Assembly (NCBI RefSeq): GCF_003018115.1
Contig: NZ_CP027457.1
DNA length: 64,000 bases
Source: Escherichia coli
GTDB lineage: Bacteria > Pseudomonadota > Gammaproteobacteria > Enterobacterales > Enterobacteriaceae
Direction: 5' to 3' (one strand)
The position numbers and the translations under genes are program-made. Numbering within the stretch: the stretch's first letter is position 1; each line of letters starts with the position of its first letter. This document shows positions 16,763 to 53,336 of the stretch, piece after piece. The notes beneath the pieces are model-generated. The model had not been told where the DNA came from and did no database searches. It worked only from the letters and a program-made list of their open reading frames with translations.

Positions 16763-16774
16763 GTTAACGTTAAC
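16763..16774. promoter_or_regulatory. Putative CscR operator 1 (12-bp perfect palindrome GTTAACGTTAAC)
   Basis: Perfect palindrome with CG centre typical of LacI-family operators, in cscA/cscK divergent promoter region; identical second copy 64 bp away. Confidence 0.55.
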
Positions 16775-16826: not shown

Positions 16827-16838
16827 GTTAACGTTAAC
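16827..16838. promoter_or_regulatory. Putative CscR operator 2 (GTTAACGTTAAC)
   Basis: Second identical palindrome, same flanking T..T, upstream of cscK. Confidence 0.55.
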
Positions 16839-17929: not shown

Positions 17930-19177
17930 ATGGCACTGAATATCCCATTCAGAAATGCGTACTATCGTTTTGCATCCAGTTACTCATTTCTCTTTTTTAT
18001 TTCCTGGTCGCTGTGGTGGTCGTTATACGCTATTTGGCTGAAAGGACATCTAGGGTTGACAGGGACGGAATTAGGTACACTTTATTCGGTCAACCAGTTT
18101 ACCAGCATTCTATTTATGATGTTCTACGGCATCGTTCAGGATAAACTCGGTCTGAAGAAACCACTCATCTGGTGTATGAGTTTCATCCTGGTCTTGACCG
18201 GACCGTTTATGATTTACGTTTATGAACCGTTACTGCAAAGCAATTTTTCTGTAGGTCTAATTCTGGGGGCGCTCTTTTTTGGCTTGGGGTATCTGGCGGG
18301 ATGCGGTTTGCTTGACAGCTTCACCGAAAAAATGGCGCGAAATTTTCATTTCGAATATGGAACAGCGCGCGCCTGGGGATCTTTTGGCTATGCTATTGGC
18401 GCGTTCTTTGCCGGCATATTTTTTAGTATCAATCCCCATATCAACTTCTGGTTGGTCTCGCTATTTGGCGCTGTATTTATGATGATCAACATGCGTTTTA
18501 AAGATAAGGATCACCAGTGCGTAGCGGCGGATGCGGGAGGGGTAAAAAAAGAGGATTTTATCGCAGTTTTCAAGGATCGAAACTTCTGGGTTTTCGTCAT
18601 ATTTATTGTGGGGACGTGGTCTTTCTATAACATTTTTGATCAACAACTTTTTCCTGTCTTTTATGCAGGTTTATTCGAATCACACGATGTAGGAACGCGC
18701 CTGTATGGTTATCTCAACTCATTCCAGGTGGTACTCGAAGCAGTGTGCATGGCGATTATTCCTTTCTTTGTGAATCGGGTAGGGCCAAAAAATGCATTAC
18801 TTATCGGTGTTGTGATTATGGCGTTGCGTATCCTTTCCTGCGCGCTGTTCGTTAACCCCTGGATTATTTCATTAGTGAAGCTGTTACATGCCATTGAGGT
18901 TCCACTTTGTGTCATATCCGTCTTCAAATACAGCGTGGCAAACTTTGATAAGCGCCTGTCGTCGACGATCTTTCTGATTGGTTTTCAAATTGCCAGTTCG
19001 CTTGGGATTGTGCTGCTTTCAACGCCGACTGGGATACTCTTTGACCACGCAGGCTACCAGACAGTTTTCTTCGCAATTTCGGGTATTGTCTGCCTGATGT
19101 TGCTATTTGGCATTTTCTTCCTGAGTAAAAAACGCGAGCAAATAGTTATGGAAACGCCTGTACCTTCAGCAATATAG
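17930..19177 (+). CDS. cscB: Sucrose:H+ symporter CscB (MFS, oligosaccharide:H+ symporter family)
   Basis: 415-aa 12-TMS ORF MALNIPFRNAYYRFASSYSF...; LacY-like. Confidence 0.9.
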   Translation: MALNIPFRNAYYRFASSYSFLFFISWSLWWSLYAIWLKGHLGLTGTELGTLYSVNQFTSILFMMFYGIVQDKLGLKKPLIWCMSFILVLTGPFMIYVYEPLLQSNFSVGLILGALFFGLGYLAGCGLLDSFTEKMARNFHFEYGTARAWGSFGYAIGAFFAGIFFSINPHINFWLVSLFGAVFMMINMRFKDKDHQCVAADAGGVKKEDFIAVFKDRNFWVFVIFIVGTWSFYNIFDQQLFPVFYAGLFESHDVGTRLYGYLNSFQVVLEAVCMAIIPFFVNRVGPKNALLIGVVIMALRILSCALFVNPWIISLVKLLHAIEVPLCVISVFKYSVANFDKRLSSTIFLIGFQIASSLGIVLLSTPTGILFDHAGYQTVFFAISGIVCLMLLFGIFFLSKKREQIVMETPVPSAI

Positions 19178-19185
19178 ACGTAAAC

Positions 19186-19230
19186 TTTTTCCGGTTGTTG
19201 TCGATATCTCCATATCCCTCAACCGGAAAA
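19186..19230 (+). terminator. Long inverted repeat downstream of cscB (possible terminator or island/IS junction structure)
   Basis: 11-bp stem ttttccggttg / caaccggaaaa with a 22-nt loop; no clean U-run. Confidence 0.35.
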
Positions 19231-19239
19231 TAATAATAG

Positions 19240-19420
19240 TAAAATGCTTAGCCCTGGTGACTGCTCCCCGCCCTGTCGGGCGAGGCTTCCCACTTCTTAA
19301 GCTGCAACCGTCTGTGTGACGGATTTACGCTGGCCTCCATGGGCAGAAACGACGAGTCCCGCCGCTTGTAATTCCAGTATGCCCTTGCGTTTGATGTTGA
19401 GCGCCGCGTTGATATCGCGG
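19240..19420 (-). ncRNA. Putative TnpB-associated omega RNA (reRNA) at tnpB 3-prime end and IS right end
   Basis: Inferred from the architecture of IS200/IS605 TnpB systems; subterminal hairpin ccccgccc-tgtc-gggcgagg at 19266-19285, 12 nt past the tnpB stop; exact boundaries not determinable by eye. Confidence 0.3.
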
Positions 19421-20466
19421 TCATGTTCAACTCCACACTCTGGACACTGCCAGATGCGCTTATGTAATGGCATCTCCGACATTTTGTGACCGCAGCAGTG
19501 GCAGATTTTCGAACTGGCGAACCATTGATCCAGTTTCACCAGATGCACACCTTTCTCTGTTGCTTTGTATTCCAGTTTTGTGATGAATCCAGACCATCCA
19601 GCATCGCCTATCGCACGAGCCAGATGGTGATTTTTCATCATATTTGCCGTTTTCAATGTCTCGACAATTACCGCTTGGTTTTCGTCAACAATTGCGCGAG
19701 ATAACTTGTGCTGGAAATCGGCACGGGCACTGGCTACCCGTTCGTGAACGGCTGCAAGTTGTATTCTGGCTTTGCGCCTGTTTGCGCTCCCTTTTTTCTT
19801 ACGGGACAGTGCTTTCTGCTTCCGGCGAAGGTTGCGACTTGCATTGATTAGGTGGCGGGGACTGGCAATTTTATTGCCGTCCGATTTGATGACAAAATGC
19901 GCCAGCCCCATATCCAGCCCTGTCACATTTGATATCAGTGCGGGCTTTGCCGGCGCTTCCATCCCGTCGTCACAGAGTAACGACGCGTAGTATTTCCCGG
20001 TTGCGCTGCGGCTCAACGTGATACTTTTCAGCATTCCCGTAATTTCACGATGTAAACGCGCTTCAATCGGCAAGATTTTCGGTATTTTTATCGCACCATC
20101 AAGGACTTTTATGCCAACACAATGATAGCTCGATTGTCTGCCGTGTTTACTTTTAAAGGTAGGTTTACCTGCTTTCAGTTTCGGATTGAAAAAGTTAGAA
20201 AAAGCCACGTCGAGGTTAATTACCGCCTGCTGCAACGCAATAGAATCATATTCTTTAAGCCATCCATACCGGCGGGATTTCTTCGCCACTGCAAGCAGTG
20301 GTTTGAGGTCTTTACGCGGGTTTAAATTTACGCGGTGCCGCTGGTAAGAATGTTTCTTGATATGCAGAGCTTTGTTGTACGCAAAACGCACTGCACCGAA
20401 CTGGGCGTTGATAAATTCAGCCTGTTCTGGTGTCGGGTAGATGCGTACTTTTGTTGCTCTTAACAT
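19297..20466 (-). CDS. tnpB: TnpB (OrfB) RNA-guided endonuclease-like protein, RuvC-like with zinc finger
   Basis: 389-aa ORF; RuvC-I GLDMGL, RuvC-II VIVETLK, Zn finger CHCCGHK..CPECG, RuvC-III HDRDINAALNI. Confidence 0.9.
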   Translation of the reverse strand: MLRATKVRIYPTPEQAEFINAQFGAVRFAYNKALHIKKHSYQRHRVNLNPRKDLKPLLAVAKKSRRYGWLKEYDSIALQQAVINLDVAFSNFFNPKLKAGKPTFKSKHGRQSSYHCVGIKVLDGAIKIPKILPIEARLHREITGMLKSITLSRSATGKYYASLLCDDGMEAPAKPALISNVTGLDMGLAHFVIKSDGNKIASPRHLINASRNLRRKQKALSRKKKGSANRRKARIQLAAVHERVASARADFQHKLSRAIVDENQAVIVETLKTANMMKNHHLARAIGDAGWSGFITKLEYKATEKGVHLVKLDQWFASSKICHCCGHKMSEMPLHKRIWQCPECGVEHDRDINAALNIKRKGILELQAAGLVVSAHGGQRKSVTQTVAA

Positions 20467-20522
20467 AATCAGCGCTCATTGATATAATTCTTTTATTTTA
20501 ACGCTTTAGGTGAATATATCAA

Positions 20523-20948
20523 TTGAGTAATCATGATGATTTACTGGCGGGATTTCTCCGCAAACGACACAGTGTCAGTAAGCTGGTTGTGCACCTTATT
20601 TTTACGACAAAGTATCGACGCAAACTATTCGACAGTCAGATGATCGCTCAGTTGCGTGAGGCTTTTGGCTCCGCTGCGGCAAAGCTTGAATGCGAAATTA
20701 TTGAGATGGACGGGGAGCCAGACCATGTACACCTGCTGGTTGCCTACCCGCCAAAACTGGCGGTCAGTGTGATGGTCAATAATTTAAAATCGGTATCATC
20801 ACGTTTGCTACGCCAGCAGAACGCGCATTTACGTATGCAGAGTAAAACGGGGCTTTTGTGGTCGAGATCGTACTTTGTCTGTAGCACCGGAGGGGCAACG
20901 ATTGAAACGCTCAGAGCCTACGTTCAGAGTCAGTCAACACCTGATTGA
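20523..20948 (+). CDS. tnpA: IS200-type Y1 (HUH) transposase TnpA
   Basis: HUH motif HVHLL and catalytic Tyr region SYFVCSTGGA; annotated frame begins at TTG so true start uncertain; hairpin terminator at 20954-20973. Confidence 0.85.
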   Translation: MSNHDDLLAGFLRKRHSVSKLVVHLIFTTKYRRKLFDSQMIAQLREAFGSAAAKLECEIIEMDGEPDHVHLLVAYPPKLAVSVMVNNLKSVSSRLLRQQNAHLRMQSKTGLLWSRSYFVCSTGGATIETLRAYVQSQSTPD

Positions 20949-21018
20949 TCTTTAAAGCCCTGCGGGCTTTTCGCCTTATATCCCCGCCCGCATTGGGCGA
21001 GGGTTTACGGCGTTTTTC

Positions 21019-53301: not shown

Positions 53302-53336
53302 TTTCAGGCTGTAGCCAACGTAGTTACAGCCTGAAA
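53302..53336. other. Intergenic stem-loop between truA and dedA
   Basis: Inverted repeat ttcaggctgta..tacagcctgaa without a U-run. Confidence 0.3.

What the first reader, a model, noticed from the sequence alone, without database searches (positions are those of the whole stretch)
19178..19254. Large-loop inverted repeat in the cscB to IS junction
An 11-bp perfect stem (ttttccggttg / caaccggaaaa, 19187-19230) with a 22-nt loop lies between the cscB stop and the predicted IS right end. It lacks a canonical U-run. It may be the cscB terminator, or it may mark the true recombination junction, and it overlaps where a TnpB guide would be drawn from.
Basis: seen in the sequence. Interest (0 to 1): 0.3.

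Follow-up and report, generated by a model that had tools for sequence, protein, structure and literature searches.

The report
Conserved hairpin ending the sucrose operon
The inverted repeat is real, but it is an ordinary conserved stem-loop at the 3' end of the sucrose-permease gene cscB that travels with the sucrose genes; it is not part of the neighbouring insertion sequence, its junction, or its guide RNA.

Summary
There is an 11-bp perfect inverted repeat (19187-19197 / 19220-19230) with a 22-nt spacer, 10 nt after the cscB stop, and no U-run follows it. The spacer holds a second small stem (GATAT/ATATC).

The repeat belongs to the csc sucrose module, not to the IS:
- The cscB 3' flank is single-copy in 2,640 of 5,426 complete E. 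coli genomes. Only 7 of them carry the IS here.
- The same hairpin follows cscB in Citrobacter amalonaticus, in a different genomic context.
- Other copies of the IS (ISEc46, IS200/IS605 family) start at 19257 and have unrelated flanks.

The IS junction is 19256|19257, 26 bp from the stem. It is a normal TTAG-targeted insertion site. A roughly 16-20-nt TnpB guide (19237-19256) would not reach the stem.

The arms are almost invariant (0-1 of 22 positions) while the loop, flank and cscB 3' end vary (54 of 87). No pair shows compensatory change.

The most likely role is a U-less 3' stem-loop of the cscKB mRNA, acting as an exonuclease barrier or weak terminator. It probably descends from an intercistronic hairpin between cscB and a chemoreceptor gene, which is still intact in Citrobacter and survives as a 26-nt vestige in E. 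coli. The function is inferred, not shown. Interest is low.

The parts
17930..19177 (+). cscB (sucrose:H+ symporter), last gene of the cscKB operon; stop codon TAG at 19175-19177
   Evidence: ORF; Pfam LacY_symp E=1e-193; RefSeq 'oligosaccharide MFS transporter'
19187..19197 (+). Left arm of the hairpin, TTTTCCGGTTG
   Evidence: invariant in 11 genomic variants
19198..19219 (+). Spacer. It holds the inner stem GATAT (19203-19207) / ATATC (19212-19216) and the apical loop CTCC. GATA/TATC is kept in all variants; the apical loop varies in sequence and length (4-9 nt).
19220..19230 (+). Right arm of the hairpin, CAACCGGAAAA
   Evidence: Identical in 80 of 81 metagenomic csc contigs. The only variants are A->G changes, which keep a U.G pair on the sense RNA.
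19231..19256 (+). Right-hand tail of the csc module. It is a vestige of the ribosome-binding region and first codons of a chemoreceptor (MCP) gene that follows cscB in Citrobacter (ATG has become ATA). Its last 16-20 nt (19237/19241-19256, read on the - strand) are the predicted guide source for this ISEc46 copy.
   Evidence: 58-69% ungapped identity to the Citrobacter sequence against 23% beyond the boundary; alignment; MCP Pfam hit; guide geometry from PMC8612924
19257..21019 (-). ISEc46 (IS200/IS605 family), 1,763 bp, inverted relative to the window. Right end at 19257, left end at 21019.
   Evidence: Ends defined from 5 copies in other contexts; RefSeq names tnpA 'ISEc46 family'
19266..19285 (-). 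Subterminal hairpin of the IS right end, CCTCGCCC-GACA-GGGCGGGG
19297..20466 (-). tnpB (389 aa, RNA-guided endonuclease family)
   Evidence: Pfam OrfB_IS605, Cas12f1-like_TNB and HTH_OrfB_IS605
20523..20948 (+). tnpA (141 aa, Y1 transposase), divergent from tnpB
   Evidence: Pfam Y1_Tnp E=6e-39
20982..21003 (-). Subterminal hairpin of the IS left end, CCCTCGCCC-AATGC-GGGCGGGG
21020..21023 (-). TTAG target and presumed TAM abutting the left end. It is native intS sequence, not IS sequence.
   Evidence: Intact K-12 intS reads ...atcgcaCTAAaggaattg. IS-less csc loci also have CTAA directly after the position equivalent to 19256.
21020..21300 (-). N-terminal fragment of the prophage integrase intS (CPS-53/KpLE1 type), truncated at the IS
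   Evidence: Pfam Arm-DNA-bind_3; RefSeq pseudogene; match to intact intS
21462..21536 (-). tRNA-Arg(CCU), argW, the integration hotspot next to the csc module
   Evidence: ARAGORN; Rfam tRNA 63 bits

Best explanation
The inverted repeat is a two-tier stem-loop encoded by the csc sucrose-utilisation module. It starts 10 nt after the cscB stop codon. It is not part of ISEc46, not the recombination junction, and not the TnpB guide. I infer that it acts at the RNA level, on the sense strand, as the 3'-terminal stem-loop of the cscKB mRNA. In that role it would block 3'-to-5' exonucleases and perhaps act as a weak, non-canonical terminator, with the actual transcription stop possibly supplied by Rho in the C-rich, G-poor RNA just downstream. 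Historically it is the intercistronic hairpin between cscB and a co-oriented chemoreceptor gene. That arrangement is intact in Citrobacter amalonaticus-type csc loci and reduced to a 26-nt vestige (19231-19256) in E. coli. ISEc46 later inserted 3' of a TTAG at the outer edge of that vestige. Shown here: the location, which element the hairpin belongs to, its conservation pattern, its folding potential, and the IS boundaries and target. Inferred: the RNA-level function and any involvement of Rho.
For: Ownership of the hairpin:
- IS-less csc loci match the window exactly up to 19256.
- The 79-bp flank 19178-19256 is single-copy and chromosomal in 2,640 of 5,426 E. coli genomes. Only 7 of them have the IS here.
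- Five ISEc46 copies elsewhere share sequence only from 19257 onward.
- The hairpin follows cscB in C. amalonaticus, where the downstream genes are an MCP gene and fbp. It also follows cscB in a divergent Escherichia lineage with a different junction 2-17 nt after the stem.

Constraint on the stem:
- 0 of 22 aligned arm columns vary, against 54 of 87 neighbouring positions, across 11 sequences (Fisher p = 3e-8). One further arm change, the A->G in C. amalonaticus S646, was aligned outside those columns. Within E. coli alone the figures are 0 of 22 against 11 of 57 (p = 0.03).
- The right arm is identical in 80 of 81 metagenomic contigs that were selected on the left arm only.
- The two arm variants seen (L020, L035) are both A->G. 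Each keeps a U.G pair on the sense RNA but would give an A.C mismatch on the antisense RNA.
- Loop length changes from 22 to 25-26 nt while the stem is kept or lengthened to 12-13 bp. All variants fold into the same structure with z = -2.8 to -5.2.

Position:
- More distant cscB orthologues (61-83% aa) carry unrelated hairpins at the same place. At least two of them have the features of intrinsic terminators.

Rho hint:
- The C/G ratio is 2.0-2.2 in the 80-120 nt after the stop in IS-less loci.
Against: - No pair shows a compensatory change. All 15 predicted pairs are invariant, so the conservation could equally reflect a constraint on the DNA sequence.
- The left half of the spacer (TTGTCGATA) is as conserved as the arms, which a pure stem model does not explain.
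- There is no U-tract, the base of the stem is A-U rich, and the loop is long. The site is not called by the terminator scan.
- In Citrobacter an MCP gene starts 12 nt after the hairpin with no room for its own promoter, which argues against efficient termination there.
- No 3'-end mapping or mRNA half-life data were available, and the csc papers opened do not mention this structure.
Confidence: 0.6

Rival explanations
1. The hairpin is a fossil of a translational control element. In the ancestral cscK-cscB-mcp operon its right arm sequesters the only Shine-Dalgarno-like purine run (GGAAA) of the chemoreceptor gene. Ribosomes terminating at the cscB stop, 2-10 nt upstream of the stem, open the hairpin and so couple MCP translation to cscB translation. 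In E. coli the MCP gene is gone and the hairpin has no dedicated function, or only an incidental stabilising one.
For: In five Citrobacter-type loci the 370-aa MCP ORF (MCPsignal E=4e-52 plus HAMP) starts 12 nt after the right arm, and GGAAA lies 8-10 nt before the ATG. E. coli 19231-19256 is 58-69% identical to that start region, with ATG changed to ATA. The cscB stop lies 2-10 nt before the stem, within reach of a terminating ribosome.
Against: The arms remain invariant within E. coli while the adjacent vestige has decayed: 0 of 22 against 6 of 26 variable positions. That suggests a function that does not depend on the MCP gene. The Shine-Dalgarno match is weak (GGA only). No expression data exist.
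Confidence: 0.22
2. The two arms are half-sites of a DNA-binding protein (a regulator of csc or of the neighbouring island), and the conservation reflects protein recognition rather than RNA folding.
For: The arms and the left part of the spacer are conserved in sequence with no covariation. Each arm is itself nearly palindromic around CCGG.
Against: The spacing between the arms changes from 22 to 25-26 bp in Citrobacter with the arms unchanged, which fits poorly with a dimer binding at fixed geometry. The csc repressor's likely operators are two copies of GTTAACGTTAAC in the cscA-cscK promoter region and are unrelated to the arms. The arm motif does not recur in the csc promoter region: its only other exact matches in the window (13306, 38423, 51821) are solitary, with no paired arm. 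The site lies after the last gene of the operon.
Confidence: 0.06
3. The repeat belongs to ISEc46 or to its activity: it is an IS end structure, the real recombination junction, or part of the TnpB guide.
For: It lies 26 bp from the IS right end.
Against: It is present in about 2,630 IS-less csc loci and in Citrobacter. It is absent from the flanks of five other ISEc46 copies. The IS end hairpins have a different sequence, CCTCGCCC/GGGCGGGG. The junction maps to 19256|19257, at a TTAG site. A 16-20-nt guide stops at least 6 nt before the stem.
Confidence: 0.02
4. It is a chance inverted repeat with no function.
For: There is no covariation and no experimental data.
Against: About 0.5 such 11-mer hits are expected per 64 kb. 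The fold z-score is -4.3 to -5.5. The arms are conserved far above the surrounding sequence across genera and contexts.
Confidence: 0.03

Closest known systems
Rho-independent (intrinsic) transcription terminators at operon ends
   Same: A stable hairpin directly after the stop codon of the last gene of an operon. More distant cscB orthologues have hairpins at this position, at least two with canonical terminator features.
   Different: There is no U-tract in either direction. The four base pairs at the foot of the stem are A-U. The loop is 22 nt and two-tiered, not 3-8 nt. The consensus scan does not call it. In Citrobacter a gene follows within 12 nt.
U-less 3' or intercistronic stem-loops that stabilise upstream mRNA against 3' exonucleases (for example the REP elements in the malE-malF spacer; from my own knowledge of Newbury et al. 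1987, not checked here)
   Same: A stable hairpin without a U-tract, located after a gene's stop codon and, in the Citrobacter arrangement, between two co-oriented genes. This is the mechanism I favour.
   Different: It is single-copy and has no REP/BIME consensus: one place per genome in 2,640 genomes. There is no Rfam match. Stabilisation has not been tested.
Subterminal hairpins of IS200/IS605 ends and the TnpB omega/reRNA guide
   Same: A DNA hairpin close to an IS200/IS605 right end, on the side from which the guide is transcribed.
   Different: It lies outside the element, 26 bp from the end. Its sequence is unrelated to the ISEc46 end hairpins. It is absent at other ISEc46 copies. It lies beyond a 16-20-nt guide.
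Hairpins that sequester a ribosome-binding site and mediate translational coupling between adjacent cistrons
   Same: In Citrobacter the right arm contains the only Shine-Dalgarno-like purines of the downstream MCP gene, and the upstream stop codon lies within ribosome reach of the stem.
   Different: The downstream gene no longer exists in E. coli. The Shine-Dalgarno match is weak. Nothing has been tested.

Membership tests
Intrinsic (Rho-independent) terminator | G+C-rich stem with a short loop (about 3-8 nt) | tested here: not met
   The outer stem is 11 bp but has only 5 G-C pairs, and the foot of the stem is four A-U pairs. The spacer is 22 nt, although it is partly closed by an inner 5-bp A-T-rich stem.
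Intrinsic (Rho-independent) terminator | U-tract (at least 5 U in 8 nt) starting 0-2 nt after the stem | tested here: not met
   The downstream sequence is UAAUAAUAGUAA on the + strand and AGUUUACGUCUA on the - strand. The site is absent from the terminator scan.
Intrinsic (Rho-independent) terminator | Transcript 3' ends map to the tail of the hairpin | not testable with these tools
   No transcript data were available. The csc papers opened do not mention a terminator here.
ISEc46 / IS200-IS605 element (as a component of it) | The sequence is present in all copies of the element, inside its ends | tested here: not met
   Five copies in other loci share sequence only from 19257 to 21019 (plus the TTAG target), and their right-end flanks are unrelated.
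TnpB guide (omega/reRNA 3' segment) | Lies within the roughly 16-20 nt of flank immediately beyond the right end | tested here: not met
   The guide source would be 19237/19241-19256. The nearest arm ends at 19230. The guide length of ISEc46 itself has not been measured.
csc sucrose module (cscRAKB island) | Co-occurs with cscB whatever the downstream context | tested here: met
   E. coli with the DUF4942 remnant, with a full island, or with a prophage downstream. Citrobacter with MCP and fbp downstream. A divergent Escherichia lineage with a different junction. 81 metagenomic contigs.
Dispersed repeat families (REP/BIME, ERIC, MITEs) | Many copies per genome | tested here: not met
   Median of 1 place per genome, maximum 2, in 2,640 genomes. 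The one two-place record listed (H110) is a match split at the start of the record.
Structured RNA supported by covariation | Base pairs maintained through compensatory changes | tested here: inconclusive
   15 of 15 pairs are invariant and the covariation term is 0. Only two one-sided A->G changes were seen, both keeping a U.G pair on the sense strand.
CscR (LacI-family) operator | Resembles the operator palindromes of the csc promoters | tested here: not met
   The promoter region has GTTAACGTTAAC at 16763-16774 and 16827-16838. These show no similarity to TTTTCCGGTTG. Their identification as the CscR operators is my reading and was not checked.

The most novel reading that the evidence does not exclude
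The hairpin is the surviving control element of a former sucrose-operon-linked chemoreceptor. In Citrobacter-type loci it hides the chemoreceptor gene's ribosome-binding site and makes its translation depend on ribosomes finishing cscB, which would tie chemotaxis signalling to sucrose-permease expression. E. coli inherited the csc module from such a source, lost the receptor, and kept the hairpin as an mRNA 3' cap. This would also reverse the direction of transfer suggested in PMC11251922, which proposed that the Citrobacter copies came from E. coli.
Probability: 0.2. Interest if true: 0.35.

Novelty: new member of a known kind. Interest (0 to 1): 0.15.

Why it matters
It matters mainly for annotation. 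The result settles that the repeat is host (csc) sequence. It fixes the ISEc46 boundaries (19257-21019), the target and presumed TAM (TTAG), and the guide source (19237-19256) for this copy. It also shows that the IS sits between two non-contiguous TTAG sites, so a deletion occurred here. For people engineering csc cassettes for growth on sucrose, the roughly 55 nt after cscB is a conserved element worth keeping or testing. The vestigial chemoreceptor start gives a small clue to where the E. coli csc module came from. None of this changes how any system is understood.

Tried and rejected
- Rfam scan of 18800-21700 at E<=1: only the argW tRNA and one sub-threshold chance match overlapping it; nothing at the hairpin and no omega-RNA family.
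- Promoter/terminator scan: the hairpin is not called.
- Dispersed-repeat idea: rejected, because the sequence is single-copy. In the plasmid collection it matched only 4 very large E. coli records (0.37-4.9 Mb), at 97-99% identity.
- CscR operator idea: rejected.
- attC-like or att-site idea: considered by eye and rejected. The arm polarity (GTTG inside, CAAC inside) does not match RYYYAAC...GTTRRRY. The argW att repeat TGGTGTCCCCTGCAGG lies elsewhere.
- Search for covariation in more distant cscB loci (Rosenbergiella, Pluralibacter, Raoultella, metagenomic 72-83% aa relatives): their hairpins are not homologous, so they give no covariation test.
- Literature search for a described cscB terminator or for ISEc46 mechanism: nothing found.
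- Search for intermediates of a two-IS recombination model (an intS::ISEc46 right-end junction, and an ISEc46 left-end junction to DUF4942): none in 5,426 genomes. The deletion mechanism therefore stays inferred.
- Four tool calls failed on argument syntax and were repeated correctly.

Full report
**1.
The window has a perfect 11-bp inverted repeat, TTTTCCGGTTG (19187-19197) and CAACCGGAAAA (19220-19230), with 22 nt between the arms. It lies between the stop codon of a 415-aa LacY-family permease, cscB (17930-19177; Pfam LacY_symp E=1e-193), and an IS200/IS605-family element. That element's tnpB (19297-20466, - strand) and tnpA (20523-20948, + strand) were also identified by Pfam. No U-run follows the stem on either strand, and the consensus terminator scan does not list it.

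The structure is therefore a two-tier hairpin rather than a stem with a 22-nt open loop. As RNA it folds at -17.1 kcal/mol with z = -4.3 to -5.5, and none of 200 shuffles fold as well. As DNA it folds at -11.7 kcal/mol with z = -5.5. Perfect inverted repeats of this size and spacing occur at six places in the window, against about 0.5 11-mer hits in Markov-1 simulations.

**2. The repeat belongs to the csc module, not to the IS.**
- A 231-bp query across the junction matched 7 complete E. coli genomes over its full length. csc loci without the IS matched only query positions 1-157, that is, up to window 19256.
- The 79 bp from the cscB stop to 19256 occur once per genome, always on the chromosome, in 2,640 of 5,426 genomes.
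- RefSeq names the element's transposase 'ISEc46 family'. About 450 records hold a full-length copy.
- Five copies taken from unrelated loci (ygbA-mutS, oppD, asnS, an IclR-family gene, ybhL-moaE) share sequence with the window only from GTGACTGCTCC... at 19257 onward. Their flanks on that side have nothing in common with one another or with the csc flank.

**3. Where the real junction is.**
At the other end, all copies read ...TTTTTCG-CTAA. Intact intS of K-12 already contains CTAA at that point (...aatcgcaCTAAaggaattg). IS-less csc loci read ...cttagccctgCTAAtaatcgcc.

The tetranucleotide is therefore target DNA. ISEc46 spans 19257-21019, and on its own (- strand) orientation it lies 3' of a TTAG. 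This is the usual behaviour of IS200/IS605 elements: TTAC for IS608 and TTGAT for ISDra2 (PMC8612924). Both ends carry the family's subterminal hairpins (CCTCGCCC...GGGCGGGG).

The junction 19256|19257 is thus a normal insertion junction, TTAG|CAGGGCT..., 26 bp from the stem. By analogy with ISDra2, the TnpB guide is the roughly 16 nt (20 nt also works) of flank beyond the right end, and the TAM equals the TnpA target. For this copy that is the - strand of 19256 down to 19241-19237, CAGGGCTAAGCATTTTAC(TA). It ends at least 6 nt before the right arm. The guide length of ISEc46 itself has not been measured.

**4. The IS sits between two different TTAG sites.**
Its right-end flank is the csc tail. 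Its left-end flank is codon ~93 of intS, next to argW. IS-less loci have, between those two points, a 51-codon DUF4942 remnant and about 200 bp. In some strains they also have an att repeat followed by a CP4-like island or a prophage. All of that is missing from the window.

The simplest explanation is homologous recombination between two ISEc46 copies in the same orientation. A one-step TnpA-mediated TTAG-to-TTAG joining is conceivable. Neither predicted intermediate junction exists in 5,426 genomes, so this step is inference. Either way, the recombination point is inside the IS or at its left end, not at the hairpin.

**5. The hairpin travels with cscB across genera.**
A protein-guided scan of one genome per species found cscB at 91-92% aa identity in two Citrobacter amalonaticus genomes. 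There the stop codon is followed, 2-9 nt later, by the same arms. The spacer is 25-26 nt and the stem is lengthened to 12-13 bp.

The downstream context is entirely different. A 370-aa chemoreceptor gene (MCPsignal E=4e-52, HAMP) starts 12 nt after the right arm, and fbp lies beyond it. Three metagenomic contigs show the same arrangement.

E. coli 19231-19256 aligns without gaps to the Citrobacter ribosome-binding region and first MCP codons at 58-69% identity (p = 4e-5 to 3e-3). Identity drops to 23% beyond 19256, and the ATG is ATA in E. coli. The E. coli module therefore ends at about 19256 with a vestige of that gene, and ISEc46 later inserted at the TTAG just outside it.

Two further lineages are informative. 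In a divergent Escherichia lineage the DUF4942 remnant is joined 2-17 nt after an intact hairpin. In Escherichia sp. MOD1-EC7003 an IS66-family element has inserted inside the loop.

**6. Conservation pattern.**
- Across eight E. coli variants, one divergent Escherichia and two Citrobacter sequences, 0 of 22 arm positions vary, against 54 of 87 positions in the last 30 nt of cscB, the spacer and the flanks (Fisher p = 3e-8). One further change, in C. amalonaticus S646, was placed outside the arm columns by the aligner.
- Within E. coli alone the figures are 0 of 22 against 11 of 57 (p = 0.03).
- A metagenome scan keyed only on the left arm and half the spacer returned 81 csc-type contigs in 17 haplotypes. 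The right arm was identical in 80 of them.
- The two arm variants seen (C. amalonaticus S646 and contig L035) are both A-to-G changes. Each turns a U-A pair into U.G on the sense RNA and would be an A.C mismatch on the antisense RNA.
- GATA/TATC of the inner stem is kept everywhere, while the apical loop changes in sequence and length.
- RNAalifold predicts the 11+4-pair structure, but every pair is invariant and the covariation term is 0.

The data show constraint and are compatible with a sense-strand RNA structure. They do not prove it. The left part of the spacer (TTGTCGATA) is also conserved, which a pure stem model does not explain.

**7. What it most likely does.**
More distant cscB orthologues (61-83% aa) have unrelated hairpins at the same position. 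At least two of them have the features of intrinsic terminators: a G+C-rich stem, an A-tract before it and a U-tract after it. The position is therefore that of an operon-end hairpin. This one lacks the U-tract and has an A-U foot. In Citrobacter a gene follows too closely to have its own promoter.

I therefore favour a hairpin that transcription can pass but that blocks 3' exonucleases, in the manner of the classical U-less stabilisers such as intercistronic REP elements (my own knowledge, not checked here). In E. coli the transcript may be ended by Rho in the C-rich, G-poor stretch just beyond it (C/G ratio 2.0-2.2) and trimmed back to the stem.

The main rival is that the hairpin's real job was to mask the chemoreceptor gene's weak ribosome-binding site (GGAAA in the right arm), coupling its translation to cscB, and that E. 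coli merely retains it. The continued invariance of the arms in E. coli while the adjacent vestige decays (6 of 26 positions variable) argues for a function that does not depend on that gene.

A protein-binding palindrome is unlikely, for three reasons. The arm spacing changes by 3-4 bp. The likely CscR operators (GTTAACGTTAAC, two copies) are unrelated. The arm motif does not recur in the csc promoter region: its only other exact matches in the window (13306, 38423, 51821) are solitary, with no paired arm.

**8. Comparison with what is known, and verdict.**
The csc locus and its position at the argW hotspot are well described (PMC11251922). The hairpin is not mentioned in the csc papers I opened, and Rfam has no family for it. 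It is an undescribed example of a familiar kind of element.

Of its three interpretations, the csc 3'-end hairpin survives in weakened form (not a canonical terminator), the recombination junction is refuted, and the guide overlap applies only to the edge of the quoted span. Interest is low, and the most useful by-products are listed under Noticed in passing.

Noticed in passing
window 19257-21023, with flanks 19231-19256 and 21020-21300: ISEc46 is flanked by two non-contiguous TTAG sites: the csc tail on its right-end side and codon ~93 of intS on its left-end side. The DUF4942 remnant, the att repeat and a whole CPS-53-like prophage or island are missing between them. Only 7 of 5,426 genomes, plus one metagenomic contig (L069), share this structure. 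Neither predicted single-insertion intermediate was found.
   Followed up: partly
window 19231-19256; L016 4302-4330; L020 4303-4330; L071, L102, L103: The last 26 nt of the E. coli csc module are a decayed copy of the ribosome-binding region and first codons of a 370-aa MCP gene that follows cscB in Citrobacter amalonaticus-type loci. This suggests that E. coli acquired csc from such an arrangement, rather than Citrobacter acquiring it from E. coli as PMC11251922 tentatively proposed.
   Followed up: partly
L014 4270-4341 (Escherichia sp. MOD1-EC7003): An IS66-family element (terminal GTAACCGGCTCATTT...) is inserted inside the loop of the cscB hairpin and removes the right arm. The contig ends 96 nt after cscB.
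   Followed up: partly
window 16763-16774 and 16827-16838: Two identical palindromes, GTTAACGTTAAC, lie 64 bp apart in the divergent cscA-cscK promoter region. They are probably the CscR operators.
   Followed up: no
window 20460-20522: There are back-to-back promoter-like sites in the 56-bp tnpB-tnpA spacer of ISEc46. One is on the + strand (TTAACA-17-TATAAT, 11 of 12 matches, with a TG extension). The other is on the - strand (TTGATA-16-TAAAAT). This fits divergent transcription of the two IS genes.
   Followed up: no
window 23603-23634, 25361-25393, 31177-31213, 31740-31772, 53302-53336: Five other perfect inverted repeats of at least 11 bp with short spacers. They may be terminators or other structured sites and were not examined.
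   Followed up: no
L015 4290-4330 and L066 (divergent Escherichia csc lineage): In this lineage the DUF4942 remnant is joined to the csc module 2-17 nt after the hairpin, about 105 bp closer than in mainstream E. coli. In L015 the stem is extended to 13 bp (TTTTTTCCGGTTG/CAACCGGAAAAAA).
   Followed up: partly
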